Shown one piece after another: positions 1-13,480 of a DNA stretch of 64,000 nt. How positions within the stretch are numbered: position 1 is the stretch's first letter; every line of letters begins with the position of its first letter. The notes beneath the pieces were generated by a model, which was not told where the DNA came from, did no database searches, and saw nothing but the letters and a program-made list of their open reading frames with translations. Source of the stretch: Candidatus Deferrimicrobiaceae bacterium (GTDB lineage Bacteria; Desulfobacterota; Deferrimicrobia; Deferrimicrobiales; Deferrimicrobiaceae); the NCBI GenBank assembly GCA_963792415.1, contig CAWBVY010000004.1:512001-576000 (forward strand), written 5' to 3'. The translations under genes and the position numbers were made by a program.

Positions 1-839
1 CGATGCTGCGACAGCGCGGCATCGACATCCCGGAGGACACCTGGTTCGTGGCTGCCCAGCACAATACGACCACCGATGAAGTGGAAATCCTGGACGAGCG
101 CGACTGCCCGGAGACGCACGCGGAGGATCTCCGGTGGCTTCGCCGGGACCTTGCCGAGGCGGGCGCCCGCCAGGCGCAGGAGCGTTGCGGGCGGCTGCCG
201 GGGTCGCCGGCCGGCCTCTCGCCGCGCGCCGCGCTTCGGCACGTGGAGCGCCGCAGCGCCGACCTCGCCCAGGTGCGCCCGGAGTGGGGCCTGTCGAGCA
301 ACGCCGCGTTCATCGTCGCCCACCGGTCGCTCACCCGGGAGCTCAACCTCGGCGGTCGGGTGTTCCTGCACTCCTACGACTGGGAGCGGGACACGATAGG
401 GAGCGTGCTTGACGTGATCATGACCGCCCCCCTCATCGTCGGTGAGTGGATCAACATGGAGCACTACTTCTCCACCGTGGACAACAAGGTGTACGGAAGC
501 GACAGCAAGGTGATCCACAACGTCGTGGGAGGGTTCGGGGTCGTGCTGGGCAGTGGAGGCGACCTGCAGACGGGGTTGCCGCGCCAGACGGTGATGGCGG
601 GGGAGGCGCGTTACCACGATCCCCTGCGCCTGTTGGCGGTGATCGAGGCGCCGACGGACCGGATCGGGGAGATCATCCGGCGCCACCGCATCCTGCAGCA
701 CCTGTTCGACAATGGATGGGTCAACCTGGTCGCGCTCGACCCGCGGACCGGTACCTTCCATCGCTACCTGCCAGGTTTCGCCTGGGAACGCCTCGCCGTC
801 GAACCGGGCCGCGAGCGCCGCGACGGGATACGAAAATGA
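1..839 (+). CDS. dabA: DabA/DUF2309 inorganic carbon transporter subunit, copy 1 (5'-truncated by window edge)
   Basis: Motifs HNTTTDEV, RPEWGL, RVFLHSYDW, WINMEHYFSTVDN..YGSDSKVIHNVVG, H.PLRL; nearly identical to the C-terminus of copy 2. Confidence 0.9.
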   Translation, partial: MLRQRGIDIPEDTWFVAAQHNTTTDEVEILDERDCPETHAEDLRWLRRDLAEAGARQAQERCGRLPGSPAGLSPRAALRHVERRSADLAQVRPEWGLSSNAAFIVAHRSLTRELNLGGRVFLHSYDWERDTIGSVLDVIMTAPLIVGEWINMEHYFSTVDNKVYGSDSKVIHNVVGGFGVVLGSGGDLQTGLPRQTVMAGEARYHDPLRLLAVIEAPTDRIGEIIRRHRILQHLFDNGWVNLVALDPRTGTFHRYLPGFAWERLAVEPGRERRDGIRK

Positions 840-2413
840 CGTGGATGCCTGCGTACCTGTCGTCGAACCTGCTGACGGTCCTGATCTTCTTCCCGCTGGC
901 CGGGGCGCTGCTGCTCTTCTTCCTGCCGAAGGGAAACGTGCGCCTGATCCGGAACGCGACCCTGCTTGTCACCCTGGCGGAGTTCCTCCTCTCGCTGGTC
1001 ATCGTCTTCCGGTTCGACGACGCAACCGCGTCGATGCAGTTCGTCGAGCGGGCTTCCTGGATCCCCGGCTACGGGATCGAGTACCACGTGGGCGTCGACG
1101 GGATCTCGCTCTGGCTCGTCATGCTCACGACGTTCCTCATGCCCATCGTGGTCCTCTCCACCTACCAGGCGGTTGAGAAGCACGTGAAGGAGTTCCTGAT
1201 CTTCACACTGGTTCTGGAGGTCGGGATGGTGGGGGTGTTCCTTGCGATCGACCTCTTCCTCTTCTACATCTTCTGGGAACTGGTGCTCGTCCCGATGTAC
1301 TTCCTGATCGGGGTGTGGGGTAGCGACCGGCGCATCTACTCGGCGATCAAGTTCTTCCTGTACACGTTCGCGGGCTCGGTGCTGATGCTCGTCGCGATCA
1401 TCGCGCTCTATTTCCACCACCACGAGGTCACGGGGGTCTACACGACGAACCTGCTCCGCCTGTATGAGCTGTCGATTCCGGTGCAGCTGCAGTTCTGGAT
1501 GTTCGCCGCCTTCGCGCTGGCGTTCGCGGTCAAGGTCCCGATGTTCCCGTTCCACACGTGGCTCCCCGACGCCCACGTGGACGCACCCACGTCGGGCTCG
1601 GTGATCCTCGCGGCGTTATTGCTCAAGATGGGGACCTACGGGTTCCTCCGGTTCGCGATGCCTCTGTTTCCGGTCGCCGCTTTCGATCTGATGCCGTTGA
1701 TCGGTGCGCTTGCGGTCGTCGGGATCATCTACGGGGCGCTGGTCGCGATGGCCCAGAAGGACATGAAGAAGCTCGTCGCCTACTCCTCGGTCTCCCACCT
1801 CGGGTTCGTCATGCTGGGGCTGTTCGCCTTCAACATCCAGGGGATACAGGGCGGAATCCTCCAGATGGTCAACCACGGCATCTCGACGGGGGCCCTCTTC
1901 CTCCTCGTCGGCATCCTCTACGAGAGGCGCCACACCCGCCTCGTTTCGGAGTACGGAGGGCTGTTCAAGGTCATCCCCGTGTACGCGACGGTCTTCATGA
2001 TCGTGGCGCTCTCCTCGCTGGGTCTGCCCGGCCTGAACAACTTCGCCGGCGAGTTCCTGATCCTCATGGGCGCGTTCCAGTCGATGAGGGGGCTCACGGT
2101 CGCGGCCACCGTCGGGATCTTCTTCGCGGCCGTATACATGCTCTGGATGTTCCAGCGCGTGATGTTCGGCGCGGTGGGCAACGAGAAGAACCGGCATCTT
2201 CCGGACATGAATGCGCGCGAGGTGGCCTGCATGCTTCCTCTCCTTCTGTTCGTCTTCTGGATCGGGGTATACCCCCAGACGTTCCTCCGGAAGATGGAAG
2301 CCTCGGTGTCGGCTGCCGTGACGCGGATGGAGGGGAAGCGACAGGCGTTGCTCATGGGACGGCCGCCCGGGGAGACCCTGCTCGCACGCTATTTCGATCG
2401 TGCCCGTGATTGA
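836..2413 (+). CDS. NuoM/ND4-like proton-translocating antiporter subunit, copy 1
   Basis: ATG 836 overlaps the dabA stop (ATGA); motifs GVDGISL, FYIFWE, KVPMFPFHTWLPDAH, LLKMGTYG, AYSSVSH, FAGEF. Confidence 0.92.
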   Translation: MTWMPAYLSSNLLTVLIFFPLAGALLLFFLPKGNVRLIRNATLLVTLAEFLLSLVIVFRFDDATASMQFVERASWIPGYGIEYHVGVDGISLWLVMLTTFLMPIVVLSTYQAVEKHVKEFLIFTLVLEVGMVGVFLAIDLFLFYIFWELVLVPMYFLIGVWGSDRRIYSAIKFFLYTFAGSVLMLVAIIALYFHHHEVTGVYTTNLLRLYELSIPVQLQFWMFAAFALAFAVKVPMFPFHTWLPDAHVDAPTSGSVILAALLLKMGTYGFLRFAMPLFPVAAFDLMPLIGALAVVGIIYGALVAMAQKDMKKLVAYSSVSHLGFVMLGLFAFNIQGIQGGILQMVNHGISTGALFLLVGILYERRHTRLVSEYGGLFKVIPVYATVFMIVALSSLGLPGLNNFAGEFLILMGAFQSMRGLTVAATVGIFFAAVYMLWMFQRVMFGAVGNEKNRHLPDMNAREVACMLPLLLFVFWIGVYPQTFLRKMEASVSAAVTRMEGKRQALLMGRPPGETLLARYFDRARD

Positions 2414-2491: not shown

Positions 2492-2836
2492 ATGAGCGAC
2501 ACAAGCCTGGTATTGATGAAGAGGGTCCAGATCATCGTCAAGGGCGAGGACCTGCACCTTGTCGAGGAGCTTCTCGTGAAAGCGCGCGTTTCCGGATTCA
2601 CCATCGTGCCGAACGTATCGGGCAGGGGGCATCACGGCACCCATGAAGGGCACCTTCTCTTCAACGACATGCACACGCTGGACGTCCTGTTCACCATCGT
2701 CCCGGAGGACCGGGTCGATCCGATCCTCGCCGGCCTCGGGACGCTGTTCGAGCGGCATTCGGGCGTCGTGTTCGTCTCGGATGTCTGGGTCACCCGCAAG
2801 CACTACTTCGAGACGTATGCCAACCCCTCCCGCTGA
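2492..2836 (+). CDS. PII-like regulator (SbtB-like, non-GlnB)
   Basis: 114 aa; MKRVQIIV, GFTIVPNVSGRG, SGVVFVSDV PII-fold pattern; lacks the GlnB Tyr51 T-loop. Confidence 0.8.
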   Translation: MSDTSLVLMKRVQIIVKGEDLHLVEELLVKARVSGFTIVPNVSGRGHHGTHEGHLLFNDMHTLDVLFTIVPEDRVDPILAGLGTLFERHSGVVFVSDVWVTRKHYFETYANPSR

Positions 2837-2859: not shown

Positions 2860-4782
2860 ATGCCACTCGCCTGCCTCGCCGTTCCCGCACTGCCCCTGCT
2901 CGCCTTCCTGGCGATCCTCCTGGGCGGTCACTGGCTTCGCGGCCGCAGTCATGTGGTCGCGCTCGCCGCCGCCGGCGTTTCGTTCGCCCTGTCGGTGGCG
3001 GTGGCAGTCGAGGTCGTCTCGTCGGGTCCGGTCCAGGTGGTTCTGTACACGTGGATCGGGTCCGGATCGTTAGTGGTGCGCCTCGGACTGTACGTGGACC
3101 GCCTGACCGTCGTCATGCTGGTGATGGTGACGACGATCTCGGGAATCGTGCAGGCTTACAGCGTGCGTTACATGGACGGCGACGGCGGCTACTCGAGGTA
3201 CTTCGCCTTCGTCTGCCTGTTCACCGGCTCCATGCTGATGCTGGTGATGAGCGACAACCTCCTGATGATGTTCGTGTTCTGGGAAGCGGTGGGACTGTGC
3301 TCCTACCTCCTGATCGGGTTCACGTACGAGCGGAAGCCGGCGTGCGACGCCGCGGTGAAGGCGTTCTGGGTGAACCGGGTCGGCGACATGGGGTTCCTGC
3401 TGGGGATCCTTCTCGCGTGGACGACGTTCGGGACGCTCGACTCCCTCGCGATCATGCGCGAGGCGGGCCGGCACGCGGGCGCCACCGTCGCGCTCTTCGG
3501 TCAGTACGGGTCGGTGAGCACGCTGACCCTCATCACCATGCTGTTCCTCTGCGGGGCGCTCGCAAAGTCGGCCCAGCTTCCTTTCCACGTGTGGCTGCCT
3601 GACGCGATGGAGGCGCCGACTCCCGTCTCCGCCCTGATCCACGCGGCGACGATGGTGACGGCCGGCGTGTTCCTCATCGCCCGCTTCGCCCCCCTGTTCG
3701 AACTCGCTCCCGTGACGCTCTCCGTCCTCGCGTTCGTCGGCGCGGCGTCGGCGTTCTTCGCGGCCGCGGTCTCGACGGTCCAGACCGACATCAAGCGGGT
3801 CCTGGCGTATTCCACGATGTGCCAGCTGGGGTACATGATGCTGGCCTGCGGTCTCGGGGCCTACGGGCTGGCGATCTTCCACCTGGTCGCCCACGCGGCG
3901 TTCAAGGCCCTGCTGTTCCTGACCGCGGGGATGGCGATCGAGGAGGTCGCCGCGCACGAAGCGCTCATCGAATCCGGGCGATCCGGGCGCTGGCTCCCCG
4001 CCCGCTTCTGGCTCCTGTGGATATCGGGGGTCGCCCTGGCGGCGATGCCGCCCCTGGTTCTTATCGCGGGCGGGAAAGGTCTTTTTCAACTGGTGTCCCC
4101 ATCGGATCACGGCCATCCGGTATTCTGGATCCTGGCATGGGGCACCGCGCTGATGACGGTCGTTTACCTGCTCCGGCTGGTCGGAACCGCCGAGCTCCGG
4201 TCCGGGGTGGACGCCACGCCGATTCGGCTCCTGTCGCCGCGGGCGCTCGGATTCGTGGCCGGGACGGCAGGGGTGGTGGTCCTTGCCTCGGTCTGGTCGC
4301 CTCTCGCCGGATGGGCCTGGTTCGAGCGGTTCATGGCTTCGGCGCTGCCGACCCCGCACCACGGATCCCCGCCTTCCGCGGCGGAAGGGACGCTTGCGCT
4401 GGCCGCCGTGACGGTCGCCGGCCTGACCCTCCTGGCGGCGGCATGGGGGGGGCTGCGCGCGGTGCTGCGGCTGCGGACGGCCGCCGGCCCCGGGTTGTGG
4501 GACAGGTGGAGCGCAACGTTGTACGTGGTCGTGCTGAACCGCGGGTATGTGGACGAGATCTACCGGGCGACGCTGGTGCGACCCGCGCTTTCGCTCGCGA
4601 TGTGGCTGTCCGACTCGTTCGACGCCGGAGTCATCGACCGCGCTGTCGACGGCTTCGGGGCGGCCGTCGCGGGCATGGGGGAGCGGATGCGGGAGATCCA
4701 GAGCGGGCAGTTCCACCATTACGCCATCGCCATGCTTCTCGGGGTCATCCTGCTCCTGGGGTTCTGCCTGGTGGCGGGCTAA
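2860..4782 (+). CDS. NuoL/ND5-like (DabB-related) membrane subunit, copy 1
   Basis: FWEAVGLCSYLLIGF, NRVGD, KSAQLPFHVWLPDAMEAPTPVSALIHAATMV, DIKRVLAYST, HAAFKALLF; C-terminal lateral helix plus last TM. Confidence 0.9.
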   Translation: MPLACLAVPALPLLAFLAILLGGHWLRGRSHVVALAAAGVSFALSVAVAVEVVSSGPVQVVLYTWIGSGSLVVRLGLYVDRLTVVMLVMVTTISGIVQAYSVRYMDGDGGYSRYFAFVCLFTGSMLMLVMSDNLLMMFVFWEAVGLCSYLLIGFTYERKPACDAAVKAFWVNRVGDMGFLLGILLAWTTFGTLDSLAIMREAGRHAGATVALFGQYGSVSTLTLITMLFLCGALAKSAQLPFHVWLPDAMEAPTPVSALIHAATMVTAGVFLIARFAPLFELAPVTLSVLAFVGAASAFFAAAVSTVQTDIKRVLAYSTMCQLGYMMLACGLGAYGLAIFHLVAHAAFKALLFLTAGMAIEEVAAHEALIESGRSGRWLPARFWLLWISGVALAAMPPLVLIAGGKGLFQLVSPSDHGHPVFWILAWGTALMTVVYLLRLVGTAELRSGVDATPIRLLSPRALGFVAGTAGVVVLASVWSPLAGWAWFERFMASALPTPHHGSPPSAAEGTLALAAVTVAGLTLLAAAWGGLRAVLRLRTAAGPGLWDRWSATLYVVVLNRGYVDEIYRATLVRPALSLAMWLSDSFDAGVIDRAVDGFGAAVAGMGERMREIQSGQFHHYAIAMLLGVILLLGFCLVAG

Positions 4783-4873
4783 GGGGAGGATCTTCCCCTT
4801 GACTCGAAGGTTTGCATGTTAAAAGATGTTCGCTGATCGGGTCATGCCGGCTGCTCTTTTCGGGGGAACCACG

Positions 4874-7800
4874 GTGTCCACCAAACGCGTCGAGCAGACA
4901 GGTCCGATCACCGAAGTCGACCGGCAGCGGGTGCTGTCCGCGGTCGCCCTGGCGAGCGAGTCCGTTTCGTCGTTCTGGCCGATGCGGATGTTCGTCCACC
5001 ACAATCCCCTTCACGGCCTCGAACATCTGCCCTTCGACACGGCGGTCCGCAAGTCGAATAGCCTTACCGGCGGACGTGGTTACCTGACAAACGAAGAGTA
5101 CCGCCGCATGTTGGCGAGCGGGCACATAAAAGCCGATGACCTCGCTCGTGCGATCGAACGGCTTGAATTTGCCGGAATCGACGTGCGCAAGGAAGTGGTC
5201 TTCGGTGGGCGCCGGGTCCGGACCCTCGATGTCGTTGCCAGCCATGTCGCCTTCGGGATCGGCGCGCTGGAGCCGGCCGCATTCCGGGCCCGGGTCCGCG
5301 AGCGGGCGCTTCTGCGGCTGTTTCCCGATCTCCCGCCGGACCGCCGCGCCCGGCTGCTTGCCGCCTCGGCATGGAAGACCCCGGAAGAGATCGCATCGGA
5401 GCTTTGGTCGGCCGTTCTTCGCGTCCTGGGAATCAGCGGCCCGGATCCGTTCGCCTTCGACGAACTCGAGGAGGCGGAACTGGAGGTGCGTTTCGAGCGC
5501 GAAGTGCTCGCGGCGACCTCGGGCGAAACAGAGGCCGTGGATGCCGCCGTCGCGTCGGACGGCCTGGAGCTGCTGGCAGCCGACCTCGACCGCGTCGGGG
5601 AGGATATGACCGCGGGGGAGTGGTGCGGCCGGCTGGCGGGCGCCGACATCGTCGGCGTGATCAACAGGGAAATGATCAAATGGTGCTCGGTTTTCCTCGA
5701 TCAGGGGGTGGCGACGTGGGAGGCCCCCGGCAGGGAGAAGGGATTCTACTCCTTCTGGCGGAGCCTTGCAGCGTGGGATTTCTCGGGAAGATTCCTGGGG
5801 ATTCGAGGGTTTCGCCGCATGGTACATCGCCTGCCGGATACGTCCGAGGATGCGCTCATCGGGAGCTTGCGTGCGCTGGGAAATACCGACAAGAGCTGGA
5901 TCGAAACCCTGGGGCGTCACCTTGCCCAGCTGCCCGGTTGGGCGGGATTCGTGAAATGGCGGTCGGAGGCGCACGACTACCATTGGCAACGGCGGCACCC
6001 CATCGATCTGGTCGATTATCTCGCGGTGCGGATGTTCTACGAACGTCACCTTGTGGATGCGTGCTGCCGGGATATCTGGGAAGTCGAAGGGACGGTGCAC
6101 GCGCTGGCGGAGTATTTCCGTCGCCGTCCCGCCGAGTATTTTGCGCGCCGGCGATCCGCCGAGGAACCGTTCCCGGATTTTACACGCCGGCATCGTCCTG
6201 CCGCGGAGCGAAAACCAGGGAGTGACGACGCCTGGGTCCGGTTCGGCCGCATCCTTTTCCTGGTCCGGGAACACTCTGAACGCGATCCGTGGTCGGCGCA
6301 TGGTCGCGACGCATGGCGGCTGTTCCGTCTGGCCCAGTTCCTGGCGCTCTCGCCTGCGGAGGTCCGGGCGATGTCCGGGGATGACGCACGGGCGTTGCTG
6401 GCGATCCTCGACCGCGTGCCGCCGGACGCGCACGGCCGGATCTGGCTGGAGGCCCACGAGGCGAATTACAGGGACACGCTGCTTTCCCGGCTGGCTGCGA
6501 GACATCGAGACCTCCTCTCGGGGAGCCCCCGGCGTGACTCCCGTCCCGCGTCGCAGTCGGTGTACTGCATCGATGTCCGATCGGAGGGGTTCCGACGGCA
6601 TCTCGAAGCCGTGGGCGACCATGAAACGTTCGGCTTCGCGGGCTTTTTCGGTCGTTCCCATCGGGTTCCGCGGTTTCGGGAAGAAGGAGGATTCGGCGCT
6701 CTGCCCCGTCCTGATCAAGCCGAAGTGCGTGATCGTGGAGCAGCCGGGTGTCGGCGCCGGCCCGGCCGGGAAGCGGGCGTTGCGGGGCATGGCGTGGGAC
6801 GGCATCGTTCATGGAGTCGTCCAGCGGCTCGAGCGTCATTTCGCGGCTTCGTACGCGATGGTCGATCTGCTCGGCGGGGTTTTCGGCCTCTCGCTCGCAG
6901 GCCGTACCTTGGCCCCGGCGGCTACGCGCCGCCTCGCTGCGAAGGTCCACCATCGGGCCGTGCCGAAGGCGGCCACGAGTCTCACGGTGGGCAAGATGAC
7001 CCGGAAGGAAGCCGAGGAACTCGTCGCCGGCCTCGACCCGCCTGAACGCGCCGCCCGCCTCGAGCGGTTGGGGACGCAGGGGTTCACCGGGGAGGAACAG
7101 GCCCTCTACATCGAAACCGGGCTTCGCACGATGGGCCTTACCGGCCCCTTCGCGCGCATGGTGCTCGTCTGCGGCCACCGGAGCACATCGACCAACAATC
7201 CTTATGTGGCCGCCCTGGATTGCGGCGCGTGCGGGGGGAGCCCCAGCGGGCCGAACGCCCGTGTGTTCGCCATGCTGGCGAACAAACCCACGGTCCGGGC
7301 GATGCTGCGACAGCGCGGCATCGACATCCCGGAGGACACCTGGTTCGTGGCTGCCCAGCACAATACGACCACCGATGAAGTGGAAATCCTGGACGAGTGC
7401 GACTGCCCGGAGACGCACGGGGAGGATCTTCAGTGGCTTCGCAGGGACCTCGCCGAGGCGGGCGCCCGCCAGGCGCAGGAGCGTTGCGGGCGGCTGCCGG
7501 GATCGCCGGCCGGCCTCTCGCCGCGCGCCGCGCTTCGGCACGTGGAGCGCCGCAGCGCCGATCTCGCCCAGGTGCTCCCGGAGTGGGGGCTGTCGAGCAA
7601 CGCCGCGTTCATCGTCGCGCACCGGTCTCTCACCCGGGAGCTCAACCTCGGCGGCCGGGTGTTCCTTCAATCCTACGACTGGCGGCGGGACGCCGAGGGT
7701 ACGTCCCTTGAGATCATCATGACCGCCCCCCTCATCGTCGGTGAGTGGATCAACATGGAGCACTACTTCTCCGCCGTGGACAACAAGGTGTACGGAAGCG

Positions 7801-8114
7801 ACAGCAAGGTGGTCCACAACGTCGTGGGAGGGTTCGGGGTCATGCTGGGCAGCGGCGGCGACCTGCGGACGGGGTTGCCGCGGCAGACGGTGATGGCGGG
7901 GGAGGCGCGTTACCACGATCCCCTGCGCCTGTTGGCGGTGATCGAGGCGCCGACGGACCGGATCGGGGAGATCATCAGGCGCCATCACGCGCTTCAGCAC
8001 CTGTTCGACAACGGGTGGGTCAACCTGGTTGCGCTCGATCCGCGGACCGGTTCGTTCCTCCGCTATCGCGAGGGGGGCGGCTGGGAGCCTTCCGAGGTCC
8101 GCGCGGCCTGCTGA
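4874..8114 (+). CDS. dabA: DabA/DUF2309 copy 2, about 1080 aa, +1 frameshift near 6652
   Basis: GTG 4874 after GGGGGA; FWPMRMFVHHNPLHGLE, LPGWAGF, YCIDVRSE, GFAGFFG then VPI in the next frame, CGH.S, LDCGACGG; split over ORFs 4826-7045 and 6051-8114. Confidence 0.9.
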
Positions 8115-8203
8115 GTCGCGTCCGTTCCGGGGCGGCCTTTGCGAAAAGGGGCGGCAGCGGTTACTATGCCGGCAATGAGCGAAAACTGGCGGAGTGCATC
8201 GAC

Positions 8204-9824
8204 ATGACGGTCCCCGCATTCCTGTCGTCGAACCTGTTGACCGTGGTGATCTTCTCCCCGCTTGCCGGCGCCCTGCTGCTCGTTCTTCCTGCCGAAGGGA
8301 AACCTCCGCCTGATCCGGAACGCGGCTTTCCTGACGGCTCTCGCGGAATTCCTCCTCTCGCTGGTCATCGTCTTCCGGTTCGACGACGCGACCGCGTCGA
8401 TGCAGTTCGTCGAGCGGGCTTCCTGGATTCCCGGCTACGGGATCGAGTATCACGTGGGCGTGGACGGGATCTCCCTGTGGCTGGTGATGCTGACCACATT
8501 CCTCCTGCCGATCACGATTCTCTCCACCTACAGGGCGGTCAACAGCCACGTGAAGGAGTTCATGATCTTCCTGCTGCTCATCGAGGTCGGTATGGTGGGA
8601 GTCTTCCTGTCGATCGACCTCTTCCTCTTCTACGTTTTCTGGGAACTGGTGCTCGTCCCCATGTACCTTCTCATCGGCGTGTGGGGGAGCGACCGTTGCG
8701 TCTACTCCGCGATCAAGTTCTTCCTCTACACGTTCGCCGGCTCCGTGCTGATGCTCGTGGCCATCATCGCCCTCTATTTCCACCATTACGATGTCACCGG
8801 GGTCAAAACGACGAGCCTGCTCAGCATGTACGATCTCACCATCCCGGTGAAACTGCAGTTCTGGCTGTTCGCCGCCTTCGCGCTCGCGTTCGCCGTCAAG
8901 GTCCCGATGTTCCCGTTCCACACGTGGCTTCCCGACGCCCACGTGGACGCCCCGACTTCGGGATCCGTGATCCTTGCCGCCTTGCTGCTCAAGATGGGGA
9001 CCTACGGGTTCCTCCGTTTCGCAATGCCGCTTTTCCCCGTGGCCGCTTCGGCCCTGATGCCTGTTGTTGCGGTTCTTGCCGTCATCGGGATCATCTACGG
9101 GGCGCTCGTTGCGACGGTCCAGAAGGACATGAAGAAGCTGGTCGCCTACTCCTCCGTTTCCCACCTCGGATTCGTGATGCTCGGCCTTTTCGCCTTCAAC
9201 AGTCAGGGGATCGAGGGAGGGATCCTCCAGATGGTCAACCACGGCATCTCGACCGGGGCCCTCTTTCTCCTCGTCGGGATCCTCTACGAAAGGCGGCATA
9301 CCCGCCTGATATTGGAATACGGGGGGCTTTTCAAGATCCAGCCGGTGTTCGCCATCGTCTTCCTGATCATAACGCTTTCCTCTCTCGGCCTCCCGGGGCT
9401 CAACAACTTCGTCGGAGAGTTTCTCATCCTGATGGGAGTATTCCGGGTGTCACCGGCATTCGCGCTGCTCGCCTCCTTCGGCGTTGTTCTGTCGGCGGTC
9501 TACATGCTCTGGATGTTCCAGCGGGTGATGTTCGGCCCGGTCACGAACGAGAAGAACCGGAACTTGCCGGACCTGAGCGCGCGGGAGGCGGCCTGCGTGC
9601 TGCCTTTCCTGGTGTTCGTCTTCTGGATCGGATTTTATCCGCAGACGTTCCTCCGGAAGATGACCGCCTCGGTTTCGGCGGTCGTGTCCAGGATCGAAAC
9701 GAAGCGGCAGGCGGCGCTCGGGGATCGCCCTTCGGACGAAACCGTGCTGGCCCGCTACCTCGATTGGAAACCGCAGGGACATCGAGGGGACCACGTGTCC
9801 GTGGCGGCTCCGGGCGGGAGATGA
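8204..9824 (+). CDS. NuoM/ND4-like subunit, copy 2, +1 frameshift near 8282
   Basis: MTVPAFLSSNLL aligns to the copy 1 N-terminus; one extra G relative to copy 1; all NuoM motifs present. Confidence 0.9.
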
Positions 9825-9885
9825 AGACGGTTCGGGGTGCGAAACGGGGGGACCCTGACATTCTCCGGATATGCGGGACAGCACA

Positions 9886-11976
9886 ATGACGCTTGCCTGC
9901 ATCGCGATCCCGCTCCTTCCGTTGCTCGCCTCCGTTGCGATCGTGCTCGGCGGCCCGTGGCTGAAAGGCCGCAGCCACTTCGTGGCGCTTCCCGCCGTGT
10001 GCGGCGCGTTCGCGCTTTCCGTCGCGGCCCTCGTCCACGTGGTCTCCTCGGGGCCGGTGCGGGCGCCGCTTTACGAGTGGATCGACGCCGGGTCGTTTTC
10101 CGTGCGTATCGGCCTGTTGGTCGACCGCCTGACCGTCGTCATGCTCGTGATGGTTACGGCAGTCGCGGGCCTGGTCCAGGCGTACAGCGTGCGCTACATG
10201 CGGGGAGACGACGGGTACGCAAGGTTCTTCGCGTGCGTCTCGCTGTTCACCGGCTCGATGCTGATGCTGGTGATGAGCGACAACCTCCTGACGATGTTCG
10301 TGTTCTGGGAAGCGGTGGGACTGTGCTCCTACCTCCTGATCGGGTTCACGTACGAGCGGAAGCCGGCGTGCGACGCCGCGGTGAAGGCGTTCTGGGTGAA
10401 CCGGATCGGGGACGCGGGGTTCCTGATGGGGATCCTTCTCGCGTGGACGACGTTCGGGACGCTCGACTCCCTCGCGATCATGCGCGATGCGGGCCGGCAC
10501 GCGGGCGACACCGTCGCGCTCTTCGGTCGGTACGGGTCGGTGAACACGCTGACCCTCATCACCATGCTGTTCCTCTGCGGGGCGCTCGCAAAGTCGGCCC
10601 AGCTTCCCTTCCACGTGTGGCTGCCCAACGCGATGGAGGCGCCGACTCCCGTCTCCGCCCTGATCCACGCGGCGACGATGGTGACGGCCGGCGTGTTCCT
10701 CGTCGCCCGCTTCGCCCCCCTGTTCGACCAGGCGCCGGTTACGCGGAATGTCCTTGTCGTCGCAGGTGCGTCTTCTGCGGTGTTCGGTGCCGCTGTTTCC
10801 ATGGTGCAGGCCGACATCAAGCGGGTCCTGGCGTATTCCACGATGAGCCAGCTGGGGTACATGATGCTGGCCTGCGGCCTCGGAGCCTACGGGCTGGCGA
10901 TCTTCCACATGGTCGCCCACGCTGCGTTCAAGTCCCTGCTGTTCCTGACCGCGGGAACCGCGATCGAGGAGGTGGCCGCCCGGCACGATTTCCCGGCGCC
11001 CGTTCGCTCCGCCGGCTGGTTGCCCGCCCGCTTCTGGCTCCTCTGGGGTTCGGCCGTCGCACTGGCGTCGATGCCCCCCCTTGTACTGATCGCGGGCGGG
11101 AAAGGTCTTTTCCAACGGGTGTCCCCATCGGAACACGGGCATCCGGTATTCTGGGCGCTGACCTGGGTCGCGGCGCTGATGACGGTGGTGTACCTGCTTC
11201 GACTGGTAAGGGCCGCAGAGCAGCGATCCGGGCCGGACGCCACGCCGCTTCGTCTCCTGACGCCGAGGGCGTTCGGATATGTCGCGGGGACCGTGGCGGT
11301 GGTGACCATGGTTTCCGTGTGGTCCCCCCTCGCCGGCTGGGCGTGGTTCGAACGCTTCATGGCTTCGGCGCTCCCCTCCCCGTCGCCAGGCGCTCCGGTC
11401 GCCTCCGCGGAAGGGGCGCTGTCCCTCGCGATCATGACGGCCATGGGCGTGACGCTTTCGGCCGCGGTGTTCGGATTCCTTCATGCGGCCTTGCGAAGGC
11501 GCGCGCCTGCGGCGCCCGGCCCGTGGGATCGATGGAGTGCCATGCTCTATGTCGTTGTGCTGAACCGCGGATACGTGGACGAGGTCTATCAGGCGGCCAT
11601 TGTCCGCCCCGTGCTGGGGATCGCGAAATGGCTTTCGGAGTCGGTCGACGTCGAAATCATCGACCGTTCCGTCGAAGGCATCGGCGCGGTTTTGGAAAAC
11701 GTCGGGAGGTGGCTGTCGACGTGCATCGAGGGAGGCATCGACCGTGGTTTCGAAGGCTTCAGCGCGGTTTTTGAAGGCGTCGGGAAGTGGCTGTCGACGT
11801 GTATAGAGGGAGGAGTCATCGACCGGGCCGTCGACGGATTCGGGGCGGCCGTCGCGGGCATGGGAGAGCGGATGCGGCGGATGCAGAGCGGGCAGTTCCA
11901 CCATTACGCCATCGTCGCGCTCCTCGGCGTCATCCTGCTGCTGGGGGTGTGCCTCGCGGCGGTAGTCGCCGGTTGA
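9886..11976 (+). CDS. NuoL/ND5-like subunit, copy 2, with extended lateral helix
   Basis: Paralog of 2860-4782 with a 53-aa repeat insertion at 11656-11814. Confidence 0.9.
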   Translation: MTLACIAIPLLPLLASVAIVLGGPWLKGRSHFVALPAVCGAFALSVAALVHVVSSGPVRAPLYEWIDAGSFSVRIGLLVDRLTVVMLVMVTAVAGLVQAYSVRYMRGDDGYARFFACVSLFTGSMLMLVMSDNLLTMFVFWEAVGLCSYLLIGFTYERKPACDAAVKAFWVNRIGDAGFLMGILLAWTTFGTLDSLAIMRDAGRHAGDTVALFGRYGSVNTLTLITMLFLCGALAKSAQLPFHVWLPNAMEAPTPVSALIHAATMVTAGVFLVARFAPLFDQAPVTRNVLVVAGASSAVFGAAVSMVQADIKRVLAYSTMSQLGYMMLACGLGAYGLAIFHMVAHAAFKSLLFLTAGTAIEEVAARHDFPAPVRSAGWLPARFWLLWGSAVALASMPPLVLIAGGKGLFQRVSPSEHGHPVFWALTWVAALMTVVYLLRLVRAAEQRSGPDATPLRLLTPRAFGYVAGTVAVVTMVSVWSPLAGWAWFERFMASALPSPSPGAPVASAEGALSLAIMTAMGVTLSAAVFGFLHAALRRRAPAAPGPWDRWSAMLYVVVLNRGYVDEVYQAAIVRPVLGIAKWLSESVDVEIIDRSVEGIGAVLENVGRWLSTCIEGGIDRGFEGFSAVFEGVGKWLSTCIEGGVIDRAVDGFGAAVAGMGERMRRMQSGQFHHYAIVALLGVILLLGVCLAAVVAG
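11656..11814 (+). repeat. In-frame tandem repeat (81 + 78 bp) in the NuoL-like lateral helix
   Basis: IIDRSVEGIGAVLENVGRWLSTCIEGG / IDRGFEGFSAVFEGVGKWLSTCIEGG preceding VIDRAVDGFGA. Confidence 0.9.
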
Positions 11977-12144
11977 CCCCCCCAAAAAATCCTCAGGGCC
12001 TGATCCGCAAGGCAATAAAAGAGAACCTCCTGTCGCCGGGGGGACCGGCGCGACTCCCGCCATCCCCAACGCTGCGAAAACGTAACCGTAGTTTCGTCCA
12101 GGGGACTTCGTCCCGAGGTGGTCGGCCGTGATCGGCCGGGAGGG

Positions 12145-12176
12145 AAAAAAAGCCGCCGGGGATTTCCCCCGGCGGC
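12145..12176 (-). terminator. Intrinsic terminator of the MFS gene
   Basis: 10-bp stem GCCGCCGGGG/CCCCGGCGGC followed by T7 on the minus strand. Confidence 0.85.
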
Positions 12177-12210
12177 CTTGAAGCGGTTGTACCCCTCTGA
12201 AGACGGTCGA

Positions 12211-13480
12211 CTAGGCGTCGTGCGACGGCTTCTTGAGGATGAGCACCAGGATGATCCCGAGGACGCACATGCCCGACAGGGTGAAGTAGGTCTGGTTGTA
12301 CCCGGCGGCGATGTCTCCCGCCTTCTTCGCCGCGTCGACGATGCCGGCGAAGTACCCCGGGACGACGAACCCGCAGATTCCCCACGCCGTGAAGACGGTG
12401 CCGTAGTTGGCGCCCACGTTCTTCGGGCCGTAGAAGTCGGCCGTGAACGACGGCATCATCGCCAGGTAGCCGCCGTACGAGAAGCCGACCAGGCACAGGC
12501 CGGCAAGGGCCTGCACGAAGTTGGTGGTGTTCCGGAGCAGGAAGAGGCAGGCGACGATGTAGACGACGAACATGGCGACCGTCGTCGGCTTTCCGCCCGA
12601 TCTTGTCGGAGGTCGCGCCCCACGCGAGGCGGCCGACCCCGTTGAACGCGCTCATCAACCCGAGGGCCGCGGCCGCGGACATGATGGCGGTGCCCGCCGC
12701 CATGCCCTTCATCACCGGGACTGCCTGGCCGATGGAGACGATCCCGACGCTGGTGCCGAGGAAGTAGATGAACCACAGGCAGTAGAACTGCCACGTCTTG
12801 ACCATCTCGCCCGTGGTGAACTCCGCCTTCTGCACCACGCCGGCGGCGCTGGTGGCCGCGGCGGGAGGAGTCCACCCTTCCGGCTTGTAGCCGGCGGGCG
12901 GGACGTCGTAGATCCGGGCGGCGCCGACGACGCAGACCAGCATGATGACGCCGAGGATGCCGAAGGTCCGGGGAACGGTGGTCGACCACATCGCCGCATC
13001 GGGACCGAGGAGGGCCGAGATCAACGGCGCGAAGATCATCGAGCCCGCCCCGAAGCCGAGGACCGCGAGGCCGACGATCGTCCCGCGCTTGTCGGGGAAC
13101 CACTTCACGCAGGTGGCGATCGGGGTGACGTAGGCGAACCCGACGCCGAGGCCCCCGATGATCCCGTAGGCGAAATTGAGGCCCATCGGGTTCTGCCACA
13201 TGAGGGCCGAAAGGAAGCAGCCGGCGGCCAGCAGGCCGCCGCCGACCGAGCCGACGAGTTTCGGCCCCTTCTTGTCCTGCCAGAACCCGGCGATGATCAT
13301 CGCGACGGTGAAGAAGAGCAGCGAGTAGCGGTACGGCGCGATCGAGGTCTTCCCGTCCCAACCGTTCGTTTTCTCCAGAACCGGCCGGAACACCGACCAG
13401 GAGTACAACGCACCCAAGCACAGCTGCATTACCAAGGCGGCGTAGACGAACTTCCAACGATTCACCTTCTCAGCCATCAT
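12211..13480 (-). CDS. OFA-family (OxlT/YhjX-like) MFS transporter, frameshift near 12591
   Basis: LGALYSWSVF, KWFPDKRG, NGVGRLAWGATSDKIGR, ADFYGPKNVGANYG; split over two frames. Confidence 0.88.

What the first reader, a model, noticed from the sequence alone, without database searches (positions are those of the whole stretch)
11656..11814. NuoL lateral helix lengthened by two ~26-aa units, a possible ruler for two extra antiporter subunits
Seen: relative to its paralog (WLSDSFDAG|VIDRAVDG), copy 2 has a 53-aa in-frame insertion of two amphipathic repeats (27 + 26 aa) inside the transverse helix before the last TM. The repeats have diverged from each other, so this is not a simple assembly stutter. 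Established: the canonical NuoL helix spans NuoM and NuoN, and in '2M' complex I variants one extra NuoM goes with an approximately 26-residue lengthening. Inference: copy 1 clamps about two antiporter subunits and copy 2 about four. Copy 2 could therefore bind the products of both gene sets into one long membrane arm, or the two sets could be pumps of different gearing.
Basis: partly seen in the sequence, partly recalled or inferred. Interest (0 to 1): 0.85.

Follow-up and report, generated by a model that had tools for sequence, protein, structure and literature searches.

The report
Repeat-lengthened strap helix, DabA-linked NuoL
A complex-I-type membrane protein that sits in a putative CO2-uptake gene cluster carries two extra copies of the 27-residue building block of its long surface "strap" helix, but relatives with the same partner genes carry none, one or two, so the repeat lengthens the strap without counting pump genes.

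Summary
Window 11656-11814 encodes two in-frame tandem units (27 + 26 aa) that the paralogue at 2860-4782 lacks. It is one 53-aa gap in a 72%-identical alignment. The units are 84% alike in DNA, and a contig from an independent run spans both.

The setting is not complex I. It is a tandemly duplicated DabA / NuoM-like / (P-II) / NuoL-like cluster.

The insert lies in the lateral helix (HL). Each unit is strongly amphipathic. AlphaFold breaks the helix exactly at the Gly-Gly unit junctions and does not return TM16 to its canonical place, whereas the copy-1 control does.

Among 39 scorable homologues the HL segment measures 59, 86 or 112/113 aa (0, +1, +2 units), with one exception of 92 aa. A DabA-Mrp sister clade reaches +3.

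Unit number does not follow gene content. Two-set clusters show (0,+1), (0,+2) and (+1,+2). Single-set genomes show +2. Two Nitrospirales clusters with identical genes show 0 and +2.

The "ruler for two extra subunits" reading is therefore only partly supported. What the extra 80 Å holds remains open. This scan has found the same phenomenon before on other DNA.

The parts
3..839 (+). 3' part of dabA_0. The gene starts upstream of the window at G000:C4:509498. It is intact at 1113 aa.
   Evidence: Pfam PF10070 DabA 369 bits on the window part. Whole gene 885.8 bits in an open frame of 1121 aa. Translation.
836..2413 (+). nuoM-like gene 1 (525 aa). Its start overlaps the dabA_0 stop (ATGA).
   Evidence: PF00361 261 bits. 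Start mapped. NCBIfam TIGR01972 626.5 bits (cut-off 263.8) and NF004499 595.9 bits (cut-off 585).
2492..2836 (+). P-II family gene (114 aa), present in set 1 only.
   Evidence: PF00543 75 bits. The same position is conserved in L037-L043, L053, L088, L213, L215 and L222.
2860..4782 (+). NuoL-like copy 1 (640 aa) with the base-length lateral helix (0 extra units).
   Evidence: PF00361 + PF00662. TIGR01974 527.7 bits (cut-off 407.5). AF2 model pLDDT 84.1 with a continuous helix 561-613 and TM16 618-639. It aligns end to end with E. coli NuoL: model 1..639 to chain 1..612, Z 47-49.7, rmsd about 7.4 Å.
4826..8114 (+). dabA_1, split into two frames by one extra base near 6652 in this assembly.
   Evidence: Pfam halves 3-333 and 321-747 of 747. 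A 1-nt insertion relative to L043, whose frame is intact (1103 codons). Every listed contig of X1 and X9 at this place, and some of X2, lack one base at 6652/6654.
8204..9824 (+). nuoM-like gene 2, with one extra base near 8282 in this assembly. The listed ORF 8262-9824 is the downstream part.
   Evidence: PF00361 268 bits. The N-terminus is read in the neighbouring frame. Contigs of X1 and X2 lack one base at 8282/8283. It is 73% identical to the NuoM of the genome's nuo cluster at C4:328424-329647.
9886..11976 (+). NuoL-like copy 2 (696 aa from the ATG at 9886; 701 aa if the ATG at 9871 is used).
   Evidence: PF00361 + PF00662. TIGR01974 521.4 bits (cut-off 407.5). AF2 pLDDT 84.3. E. coli NuoL Z 45.9, rmsd 2.4 Å over model 1..585.
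11656..11736 (+). Extra HL unit 1 (27 aa), the lineage-specific duplicate.
   Evidence: 84% nt identity to unit 2 and 80% to the single extra unit of L043/G014. Hydrophobic moment 0.55; 0 of 2000 shuffles reach it. Predicted helical, ending at the Gly-Gly junction at 617/618 in 696-aa numbering.
11737..11814 (+). Extra HL unit 2 (26 aa), orthologous to the single extra unit of close relatives.
   Evidence: 88% nt identity to the extra unit of L043 and G014. Hydrophobic moment 0.52; 0 of 2000 shuffles reach it. Helix 619-642, break at 643/644.
11815..11883 (+). Native HL unit (VIDRAVDG...RRM), shared with copy 1.
   Evidence: 91% nt identity to the copy-1 unit. Helix 645-666. Both this unit and the start of unit 1 align to the same stretch of the T. 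elongatus NdhF chain.
11896..11970 (+). TM16, the terminal anchor helix.
   Evidence: AF2 helix 671-695, pLDDT 68-85. It is not covered by any of the 50 listed structural alignments to NuoL chains.
11993..13480 (-). MFS transporter gene on the opposite strand, which marks the end of the cluster.
   Evidence: PF07690 75 bits. The same neighbour follows the last NuoL in L035, L037, L038, L043 and L006.

Best explanation
What it is. The feature is a real, twice-added copy of the 27-residue module from which the lateral helix (HL) of NuoL-family proteins is built. The host protein is a full-length NuoL-family subunit. It is encoded next to a NuoM-family subunit and DabA (with a P-II protein in set 1). 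This makes it a DAB-type, ion-gradient-coupled CO2-hydration system whose membrane part is a complex-I-like L+M pair, rather than the short DabB or DabB+DabC of the solved DAB complexes.

How it most likely works. Each module is a separate amphipathic, membrane-surface helix with the signature W-L-S...D..G-I-D-R, joined to the next by a Gly-Gly hinge. Two extra modules add 53 residues, about 80 Å if helical, and move the TM16 anchor outward.

How it arises. Module number changes quickly by unequal tandem duplication or loss. It has done so repeatedly in both paralogue lineages and in a DabA-Mrp sister clade.

What is shown and what is inferred. Shown: the repeat, its place in the HL, the quantised lengths, the recurrent changes, and the lack of correlation with gene content. 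Inferred, and my preferred reading: in these DabA-linked L+M modules the far end of the strap has no fixed docking partner. Its length is therefore a tolerated, weakly constrained polymorphism of an interfacial helix and not a counter of pump genes. Whether the extra length holds additional copies of the NuoM-like subunit or a neighbouring protomer is not settled.
For: Repeat and coordinates. Independent contig support.

Cluster identity:
- DabA PF10070, PF00361 four times and P-II.
- An unrelated histone-deacetylase-family gene lies upstream.
- Both copies pass TIGR01974 and NuoM_1 passes TIGR01972 and NF004499.
- The fold matches E. coli NuoL with Z 45.9 and 49.7.

HL placement and segmentation:
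- Helices 561-616, 619-642 and 645-666 break at the unit junctions.
- Each unit has a hydrophobic moment of 0.52-0.55, against a shuffle mean of 0.17-0.18.
- The unit faces would point to 41, 119 and 311 degrees in one ideal helix.

TM16 displacement: copy 1 aligns to E. coli NuoL over 1..639 to 1..612, while no listed row for copy 2 passes model residue 631.

Quantised lengths: of 39 homologues with the anchors, 12 measure 59 aa, 12 measure 86, 11 measure 113, 3 measure 112 and 1 measures 92. Among 145 aligned NuoL-like sequences, 58 fall at 52-57, 23 at 79-83, 10 at 105-110 and 6 at 136-137; 46 had no anchors and 2 gave odd values.

Recurrent origin:
- G000's two units are both of the 'WLSTCIEGG' type, while other +2 forms are A+B.
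- A copy-1-like protein (P0022 = L037) has two near-identical units.

No tie to gene content: (set 1, set 2) is (0,+2) in G000, (0,+1) in L043, (0,+1) in G014 and (+1,+2) in G355. Single-set G225 and L037-39 carry +2. L041 (DabA-P-II-NuoL, no NuoM) carries 0. Nitrospirales G329 and G331 have the same Pfam-typed genes but 0 and +2.

Literature (passages only): HL insertions also occur in NuoL of 'Ca. Manganitrophaceae' complexes that lack extra pump genes (PMC9040806). In this genome, NuoL of the nuo cluster at C4:312362-314491 has +1 unit with a single nuoM in that operon.
Against: - The lengths are strikingly exact: 35 of 39 are 59 + 27n. Each extra unit keeps the motif and the amphipathic pattern, even in the 40%-identical sister clade where units have diverged from one another. 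This argues for constraint on every unit rather than free drift.
- dN/dS of the shared extra unit is below 1 in all 7 pairs (0.25-0.66, against 0.24-0.34 for the core). It rests on only 27 codons, and the pairs are not independent.
- The 27-aa step, about 40 Å, is close to the increment linked in print to one extra NuoM. A periodic docking role therefore remains attractive.
- Stoichiometry was not measured, and extra copies could come from the one nuoM gene.
- pLDDT in the insert is only 50-66, so the model's geometry is weak.
- No RuBisCO large subunit was found in this genome, so the physiological role of the DabA system here is unclear.
Confidence: 0.5

Rival explanations
1. Modular ruler with variable stoichiometry. 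Each extra 27-aa module straps one more antiporter-like subunit. These would be extra copies of the NuoM-like protein made from the same gene, or a neighbouring L-M protomer. Copy 2 would then build an L-M-M-M or (L-M)2 arm with more ion-translocation modules per DabA, that is, a different gearing.
For: - The unit size equals the ~26-aa insertion linked to a second NuoM in 2M complex I (passages of PMC9040806).
- Lengths are exact multiples of 27 aa in 35 of 39 homologues.
- Every extra unit repeats the conserved HL motif and the amphipathic pattern.
- TM16 is displaced in the model of copy 2 but canonical in copy 1.
- dN/dS of the extra unit is below 1 (small counts).
Against: - There is no correlation with the number of antiporter-like genes in 8 clusters or genomes of the family and 2 Nitrospirales clusters.
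- Close orthologues at about 89% protein identity differ by one unit with the same neighbours.
- The unit faces are out of phase for one rigid helix.
- I know of no case of homo-oligomeric NuoM chains (recalled, not searched).
Confidence: 0.3
2. One reading: the long helix of copy 2 clamps the products of both gene sets (L2-M2-L1-M1) into one membrane arm.
For: In G000 the two sets are adjacent and co-oriented, and the long-HL copy is the last gene. The +2 units would span about two further subunits (inference).
Against: - +2 occurs in genomes and contigs with a single set: G225, with 1 DabA hit and 1 such NuoL at 99% completeness, and L037-39.
- Two-set clusters carry +1 in L043 and G014 and (+1,+2) in G355.
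- L1 has its own HL and TM16, which would occupy the same track (inference).
Confidence: 0.05
3. Set 2 is a decaying paralogous cluster in this strain, and the HL expansion is a neutral lesion in a gene on its way to loss.
For: In the assembly, dabA_1 and nuoM_2 each carry a 1-nt insertion that breaks the frame.
Against: - Contigs of other runs that are about 99% identical lack exactly these bases.
- L043 has an intact second dabA.
- The nuoL and nuoM of a nuo cluster elsewhere in this assembly also show frame breaks, which points to assembly indels.
- nuoL copy 2 itself is an open 696-codon frame with high third-position GC.
- +1 and +2 forms are common in many intact relatives.
Confidence: 0.06
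4. Assembly artefact: the two units are a mis-assembled duplication.
For: Tandem repeats are prone to mis-assembly (general knowledge), and this assembly has indel errors.
Against: - The units differ at 12 of 75 compared bases.
- An X2 contig spans both units without gaps.
- P0004 and P0005, from other sources, have the same two units, and 11 further proteins have a different pair of units.
Confidence: 0.02

Closest known systems
HL insertion of NuoL in Nitrospira '2M' complex I and of MrpD2/NuoL in 'Ca. Manganitrophaceae' (Chadwick et al. 2018, known to me only through passages of PMC9040806)
   Same: It sits at the same place in the C-terminal amphipathic helix and has the same step of about 26-27 aa. 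The extra piece is a copy of the native 'D..IDG/IDR' unit. This genome's own nuo-cluster NuoL shows one such copy. The paper also notes insertions in complexes without extra pump genes.
   Different: Here there are two extra units, not one. The protein is encoded with DabA and one NuoM-like gene, not in a nuo operon. Unit number varies 0/+1/+2 among close relatives with unchanged neighbours.
DAB1 (DabA-DabB-DabC, Thermocrinis albus; 10.64898/2026.05.01.722082 = PMC13684180) and DAB2 (DabA2-DabB2, H. neapolitanus; PMC13144422). Passages read.
   Same: A DabA (PF10070) gene lies next to a PF00361 membrane subunit. In DAB1, DabC occupies the place that NuoM holds next to NuoL. A P-II gene is annotated in an H. 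neapolitanus genomic context figure (legend text of 10.1101/476713).
   Different: DabB is 551-559 aa with a short HL (residues 499-527) and no TM16 is described. DabC is about half a NuoM and lacks the proton-path residues. Here the partners are a full NuoL (640-701 aa, HL + TM16, passes TIGR01974) and a full NuoM (passes TIGR01972). My searches found no paper describing a DabA-NuoM-P-II-NuoL operon.
DabA-Mrp clusters of Nitrospirales and cyanobacteria (SulP/BicA - DabA - MnhE ... MnhB - MrpC - MrpD - NuoL-like - NuoM-like). The Mrp/NuoL/NuoM/BicA part was noted in 'Ca. Nitrospira alkalitolerans' (PMC7784846, passages).
   Same: These hold the nearest outgroup of the NuoL-like protein (40-42% identity). 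They are also DabA-linked. They show the same 27-aa HL module in variable number, 0 to +3.
   Different: They carry the small Mrp subunits and a third antiporter-like gene. The window's cluster has only L and M, plus P-II. The paper does not mention DabA at this locus: 'DUF2309' occurs 0 times, and a carbonic anhydrase is mentioned only elsewhere in the genome.
Cyanobacterial NDH-1MS CO2-uptake module (NdhF3-NdhD3-CupA-CupS). Recalled; only mentioned in 10.1101/476713.
   Same: A NuoL-like plus a NuoM-like subunit is paired with a CO2-hydrating protein.
   Different: CupA is unrelated to DabA, and that module plugs into a redox complex. TIGR01960 (NdhF3 family) scores 194-207 bits against a cut-off of 588.7, so these proteins are not members.

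Membership tests
NuoL / NDH-1 subunit L family | Sequence model TIGR01974 (NDH_I_L) above its cut-off; Pfam PF00662 + PF00361 | tested here: met
   Copy 2 scores 521.4 bits and copy 1 scores 527.7 bits against a cut-off of 407.5. The equivalog NF005141 is narrowly missed (518.3 and 531.2 against 556). Pfam hits.
NuoL / NDH-1 subunit L family | Fold: antiporter-like core plus TM15-HL-TM16 extension | tested here: met
   E. coli NuoL Z 45.9, rmsd 2.4 Å, 514 aligned (copy 2). Z 49.7 over 1..639 to 1..612 at rmsd 7.3 Å (copy 1). A long helix plus a terminal TM is predicted in both.
NuoL / NDH-1 subunit L family | Encoded within a nuoA-N operon (respiratory complex I) | tested here: not met
   The neighbours are dabA, a nuoM-like gene, P-II and an MFS gene. 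The genome's nuo clusters lie elsewhere, at C4:307-318 kb and 324-331 kb.
'2M'-type NuoL | About 26-aa insertion in HL | tested here: met
   Two such insertions (27 + 26 aa) at the HL start.
'2M'-type NuoL | A second nuoM gene accompanies the longer HL | tested here: not met
   There is one nuoM-like gene per set. Single-set relatives with +2 have one.
DAB (DabA/DabB) inorganic-carbon uptake systems | DabA (PF10070) adjacent to a PF00361 membrane subunit | tested here: met
   DabA_0 scores 885.8 bits. DabA_1 appears as two halves of 286.8 and 558.7 bits. The dabA stop overlaps the nuoM start.
DAB (DabA/DabB) inorganic-carbon uptake systems | Membrane partner of the DabB type (about 550 aa, short HL, no TM16) | tested here: not met
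   The partners are 640 and 696-701 aa with a full HL and TM16. DabB sizes and the short HL come from 10.1101/476713 and PMC13144422.
DAB (DabA/DabB) inorganic-carbon uptake systems | CO2 hydration / inorganic-carbon uptake activity; zinc-site residues of DabA | not tested
Mrp antiporter MrpA | MrpA models above cut-off; MrpB-like C-terminal domain; small Mrp subunit genes nearby | tested here: not met
   The best MrpA model, NF009287, scores 268 bits against a cut-off of 937. No MnhB/C/E/F/G genes lie in the cluster, unlike the Nitrospirales sister clusters.

The most novel reading that the evidence does not exclude
The 27-residue HL module is a true length quantum. Each added module lets the DabA-bearing NuoL strap one more NuoM-like pump unit (made from the same gene) or the next L-M protomer. 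Lineages would then retune the number of ions spent per CO2 hydrated simply by gaining or losing an 81-bp repeat, giving an evolvable gearbox for a vectorial carbonic anhydrase.
Probability: 0.22. Interest if true: 0.85.

Novelty: new variant of a known kind. Interest (0 to 1): 0.5.

Why it matters
The lateral helix of NuoL is the textbook "strap" of complex I. Its one known length variant, +26 aa, has been read as proof of a fourth pump subunit.

This locus, with its relatives, shows three things. The strap is built from a duplicable 27-residue module. The module number changes often. It does so without any change in the pump genes nearby. Helix length alone should therefore not be used to infer subunit number from genomes.

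The locus also shows a DabA system whose membrane part is a full NuoL + NuoM pair with a P-II protein. This form sits between the solved DabAB(C) complexes and the complex-I-type CO2-uptake modules. It offers natural 0/+1/+2 variants for testing what the strap does.

Tried and rejected
- **Complex of NuoL with several NuoM copies.** I did not run it. A fragment-only job would have tested only the textbook L-M contact, so the job was not used.
- **Model coordinates.** They are not available in the script box. Geometry was therefore inferred only from the aligned ranges of structural alignments.
- **DAB chains in the structure search.** None of the rows listed in the Foldseek search or in the two structural-alignment searches (50 rows each) is a DabB chain. 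The library ends in April 2026 and the lists are capped, so this says nothing about relatedness to DabB.
- **dN/dS on the extra unit.** The 27 codons are too few to separate weak constraint from neutrality.
- **P0043-type (+3) proteins in the window's own phylum.** Among 301 genomes, only G000 and G225 matched, and both hits belong to the window's own family. The +3 clade was then located through names and Nitrospirales handles.
- **RNA run X15.** Its contigs cover 11425-11735 at about 94% identity. These are contigs of a relative in an RNA library and do not show transcription of this gene.
- **pMMO/AMO family search.** It matched nothing anywhere, including the controls, so it is uninformative about taxonomy.
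- **Taxon name.** The names that sources give to family members conflict: 'Candidatus Methylomirabilis sp.', 'Actinobacteria bacterium' and 'Deltaproteobacteria bacterium RBG_16_64_85'. I therefore name no taxon.
- **NCBIfam on P-II and DabA_0.** No match at E <= 1e-10. The Pfam hits stand.
Full report
**1. Observation**

The ORF at window 9871-11976 translates to a 701-aa protein, or 696 aa from the second ATG at 9886. BLASTP against the paralogue at 2860-4782 (640 aa) gives 72% identity. All 53 gap positions fall in one block, between "WLSxSxD" and "GVIDRAVDG".

The block is IIDRSVEGIGAVLENVGRWLSTCIEGG (27 aa) followed by IDRGFEGFSAVFEGVGKWLSTCIEGG (26 aa). Tandem Repeats Finder reports a 78-nt period, 2.2 copies, 80% matches and score 236. 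Over 25 codons the two units are 84% identical in DNA.

I laid contigs of four public runs on 6400-12000. One X2 contig covers 11559-11819 with no gap and 2 mismatches. An X9 contig covers 10928-11723 with no gap. No joint that skips a unit is listed in that stretch. These are contigs and not raw reads, and one of the runs may be the source sample.

**2. What the genes are**

Pfam assigns the following:
- the window's first ORF to DabA (its C-terminal part);
- 836-2413 to PF00361 with the NuoM N-terminus;
- 2492-2836 to P-II;
- 2860-4782 to NuoL-type PF00662 + PF00361;
- 4826-8114 to DabA, in two frames;
- 8262-9824 to PF00361 (NuoM type);
- 9871-11976 to PF00662 + PF00361;
- the next gene, on the other strand, to an MFS transporter.

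The first DabA starts 2.5 kb upstream of the window and is intact. Before it lies an unrelated histone-deacetylase-family gene. The locus is therefore two tandem modules, dabA-nuoM-(P-II)-nuoL, and not a complex I operon. The dabA_0 stop overlaps the nuoM_1 start.

By NCBIfam both NuoL-like copies pass the NuoL subfamily model: TIGR01974 at 521 and 528 bits against a cut-off of 407.5. NuoM_1 passes TIGR01972 and one NuoM equivalog. MrpA and NdhF3 models are far below their cut-offs.

The genome's real nuo clusters lie about 185-200 kb upstream on the same contig. NuoM_2 is 73% identical to the NuoM of one of them, while NuoL copy 2 is only 41% identical to that cluster's NuoL.

**3. State of the assembly**

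dabA_1 carries one extra base near 6652, relative to a metagenome contig (L043) that has an intact 1103-codon frame. nuoM_2 carries one extra base near 8282, and its N-terminus reads in the neighbouring frame from about 8204.

Contigs of other runs that are about 99% identical lack a base at each place. At 6652/6654 this holds for every listed contig of X1 and X9 and for some of X2. At 8282/8283 it holds for X1 and X2. The nuoL and nuoM of one nuo cluster also show frame breaks in this assembly.

I read these as assembly indels rather than gene decay. Only raw reads of the source can settle it. The NuoL copy-2 frame itself is open.

**4. Structure**

AlphaFold2, with a 145-sequence alignment, gives pLDDT 84.3 for copy 2. 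After TM15 it predicts helices 561-616, 619-642 and 645-666, followed by TM16 at 671-695. The two breaks fall exactly on the Gly-Gly junctions between units. pLDDT in the insert is only 50-66.

Structural alignment puts the core on E. coli NuoL (Z 45.9, rmsd 2.4 Å, model 1..585). None of the 50 listed rows reaches past model residue 631, so TM16 is never superposed.

As a control, the model of copy 1 (pLDDT 84.1, one helix 561-613, TM16 618-639) aligns with E. coli NuoL from end to end (1..639 to 1..612, Z 47-49.7, rmsd about 7.4 Å) in 10 of the 50 listed rows. In the models, then, the insert pushes TM16 outward rather than looping out. This is a prediction of low local confidence.

Each extra unit is strongly amphipathic as a helix. 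The hydrophobic moments are 0.55 and 0.52, against shuffle means of 0.17-0.18, and 0 of 2000 shuffles reach them. The native unit scores 0.53. In one ideal continuous helix the three hydrophobic faces would point to 41, 119 and 311 degrees. The strap must therefore be segmented, with the Gly-Gly junctions acting as hinges.

**5. Relatives: quantised and variable**

A search of 5.8 billion proteins with residues 520-701 returned 40 proteins. I measured the segment from NRGYVDE to Q.GQF in 39 of them; one lacks the anchor.

| Segment length (aa) | Extra units | Proteins |
|---|---|---|
| 59 | 0 | 12 |
| 86 | +1 | 12 |
| 113 | +2 | 11 |
| 112 | +2, the window's lineage | 3 |
| 92 | irregular | 1 |

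Both paralogue lineages, "copy-1-like" and "copy-2-like", contain 0, +1 and +2 forms.

The origin of the window's pair is traceable. Its second extra unit is 88% identical in DNA to the single extra unit of its closest relatives (L043 and G014). Its first extra unit is 84% identical to the second and 80% identical to theirs. It is therefore a lineage-specific duplicate. Other +2 proteins have a different pair of units, and a copy-1-like protein has two almost identical units.

The whole family collapses into one 50%-identity cluster. The next relatives are at 42% identity or less. Among those, six proteins carry three extra units. Across the 145 aligned NuoL-like sequences the lengths cluster as follows:
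- 52-57 aa: 58 sequences;
- 79-83 aa: 23;
- 105-110 aa: 10;
- 136-137 aa: 6;
- no anchors: 46;
- odd values: 2.

**6. Does unit number count pump genes?**

It does not. I mapped the G000 proteins onto the fetched loci and searched genomes for DabA and the NuoL-like protein.

| Cluster or genome | Architecture | Extra HL units |
|---|---|---|
| G000 | two sets | (0, +2) |
| L043 | two sets | (0, +1) |
| G014 | two sets | (0, +1) |
| G355 | two sets | (+1, +2) |
| G225 (99% complete; one DabA hit, one such NuoL) | single set | +2 |
| L037-L039 | single set | +2 |
| L041 | DabA-P-II-NuoL, no NuoM | 0 |
| G329 (Nitrospirales) | SulP, DabA, MnhE, MbhD/E, MnhB, MrpC, MrpD-like, NuoL-like, NuoM-like | 0 (640 aa) |
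| G331 (Nitrospirales) | the same Pfam-typed genes as G329 | +2 (703 aa) |

The family is rare. It is found in 5 of 70 genomes of the taxonomic family at E <= 1e-150.

dN/dS of the shared extra unit is 0.25-0.66 in 7 pairs, against 0.24-0.34 for the core. With 27 codons and non-independent pairs this shows at most weak constraint.

**7. Known systems**

From passages of PMC9040806: a 26-aa HL insertion marks NuoL of Nitrospira 2M complex I and MrpD2 of "Ca. Manganitrophaceae". It is read there as room for an extra NuoM. The same paper notes such insertions in complexes without extra pump genes.

From passages on the DAB structures and the 2018 preprint:
- DabB is 551-559 aa, has 15 TM helices and a short HL.
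- DabC is a half-size, non-pumping stand-in at the NuoM position.

The window's system has a full NuoL and a full NuoM instead. My searches found no paper describing a DabA-NuoM-P-II-NuoL operon or multi-unit HL repeats.

Earlier notes of this scan report the same repeat-lengthened HL in DabA-Mrp clusters and in several complex I operons. They reach the same conclusion about gene number. I read them only after reaching my own.

**8. Verdict**

The repeat is real. It lies in the lateral helix and extends a known principle (a +26-aa step) to two steps, in a new genetic setting.

Gene number does not follow unit number, and joining both sets is not needed. My preferred reading is a modular, hinged interfacial strap whose length is evolutionarily plastic (0.5). 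The stoichiometric ruler comes second (0.3).

No RuBisCO large subunit was found in this 100%-complete genome, of which 72 kb are withheld. The role of the DabA system here may therefore be bicarbonate supply rather than a RuBisCO-linked CO2-concentrating mechanism.

Noticed in passing
window 6640-6665 and 8270-8295: Single extra bases break dabA_1 (about 6652) and nuoM_2 (about 8282) in this assembly. Near-identical contigs of other runs lack them, and L043 has an intact second dabA. They are probably assembly indels.
   Followed up: partly
G000:C4:325932-329659 (outside the window; locus L196): The nuoL and nuoM of one nuo cluster show several frame breaks in the assembly. The nuoL ORF runs on as an 834-aa frame with garbled C-terminal text, and nuoM is split.
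   Followed up: no
G000:C4:312362-317563 (locus L195): The NuoL of the other nuo cluster (709 aa) carries one extra 26-aa HL unit (FD..VVDG twice). That operon has a single nuoM and a single nuoN.
   Followed up: partly
window 8204-9824 vs G000:C4:328424-329647: The DabA-linked NuoM_2 is 73% identical to a complex I NuoM of the same genome, while the DabA-linked NuoL is only 41% identical to that cluster's NuoL. The M partner looks like a recent recruit from a nuo operon.
   Followed up: no
L211 (G331:C1:709001-729000) and L212 (G329:C15:14001-34000): Nitrospirales clusters read SulP(BicA-like)-DabA-MnhE-...-MbhD/E-MnhB-MrpC-MrpD-NuoL-NuoM. A DabA gene heads an Mrp-like operon with three antiporter-like genes. 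The NuoL HL has +2 units in one and 0 in the other.
   Followed up: partly
L041 (metagenome contig, 4109 nt): A more distant family member (62-68% identity) has DabA-P-II-NuoL with no NuoM-like gene between DabA and P-II, and a base-length HL.
   Followed up: no
whole genome G000: No RuBisCO large-subunit match (PF00016) was found in a genome rated 100% complete (72 kb withheld). The DabA system is therefore not obviously tied to a Calvin-cycle CO2-concentrating mechanism.
   Followed up: no
window 2492-2836: A P-II gene sits between nuoM and nuoL in set 1 only. The same position is conserved in relatives, including single-set clusters, which suggests regulation of the transporter by a P-II-type signal protein.
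   Followed up: no
G000:C10:17718-25000 (locus L197): A separate cluster has three PF00361-like genes and small membrane ORFs. It is probably an Mrp-type antiporter. It was seen only by tblastn and ORF listing.
   Followed up: no
protein P0007 (678 aa; locus L036): One +1 family member has an irregular extra 6 residues (a partial re-duplication, GFSAVDGFG) in the native HL unit. It is the only non-quantised length among the 39 scored.
   Followed up: no
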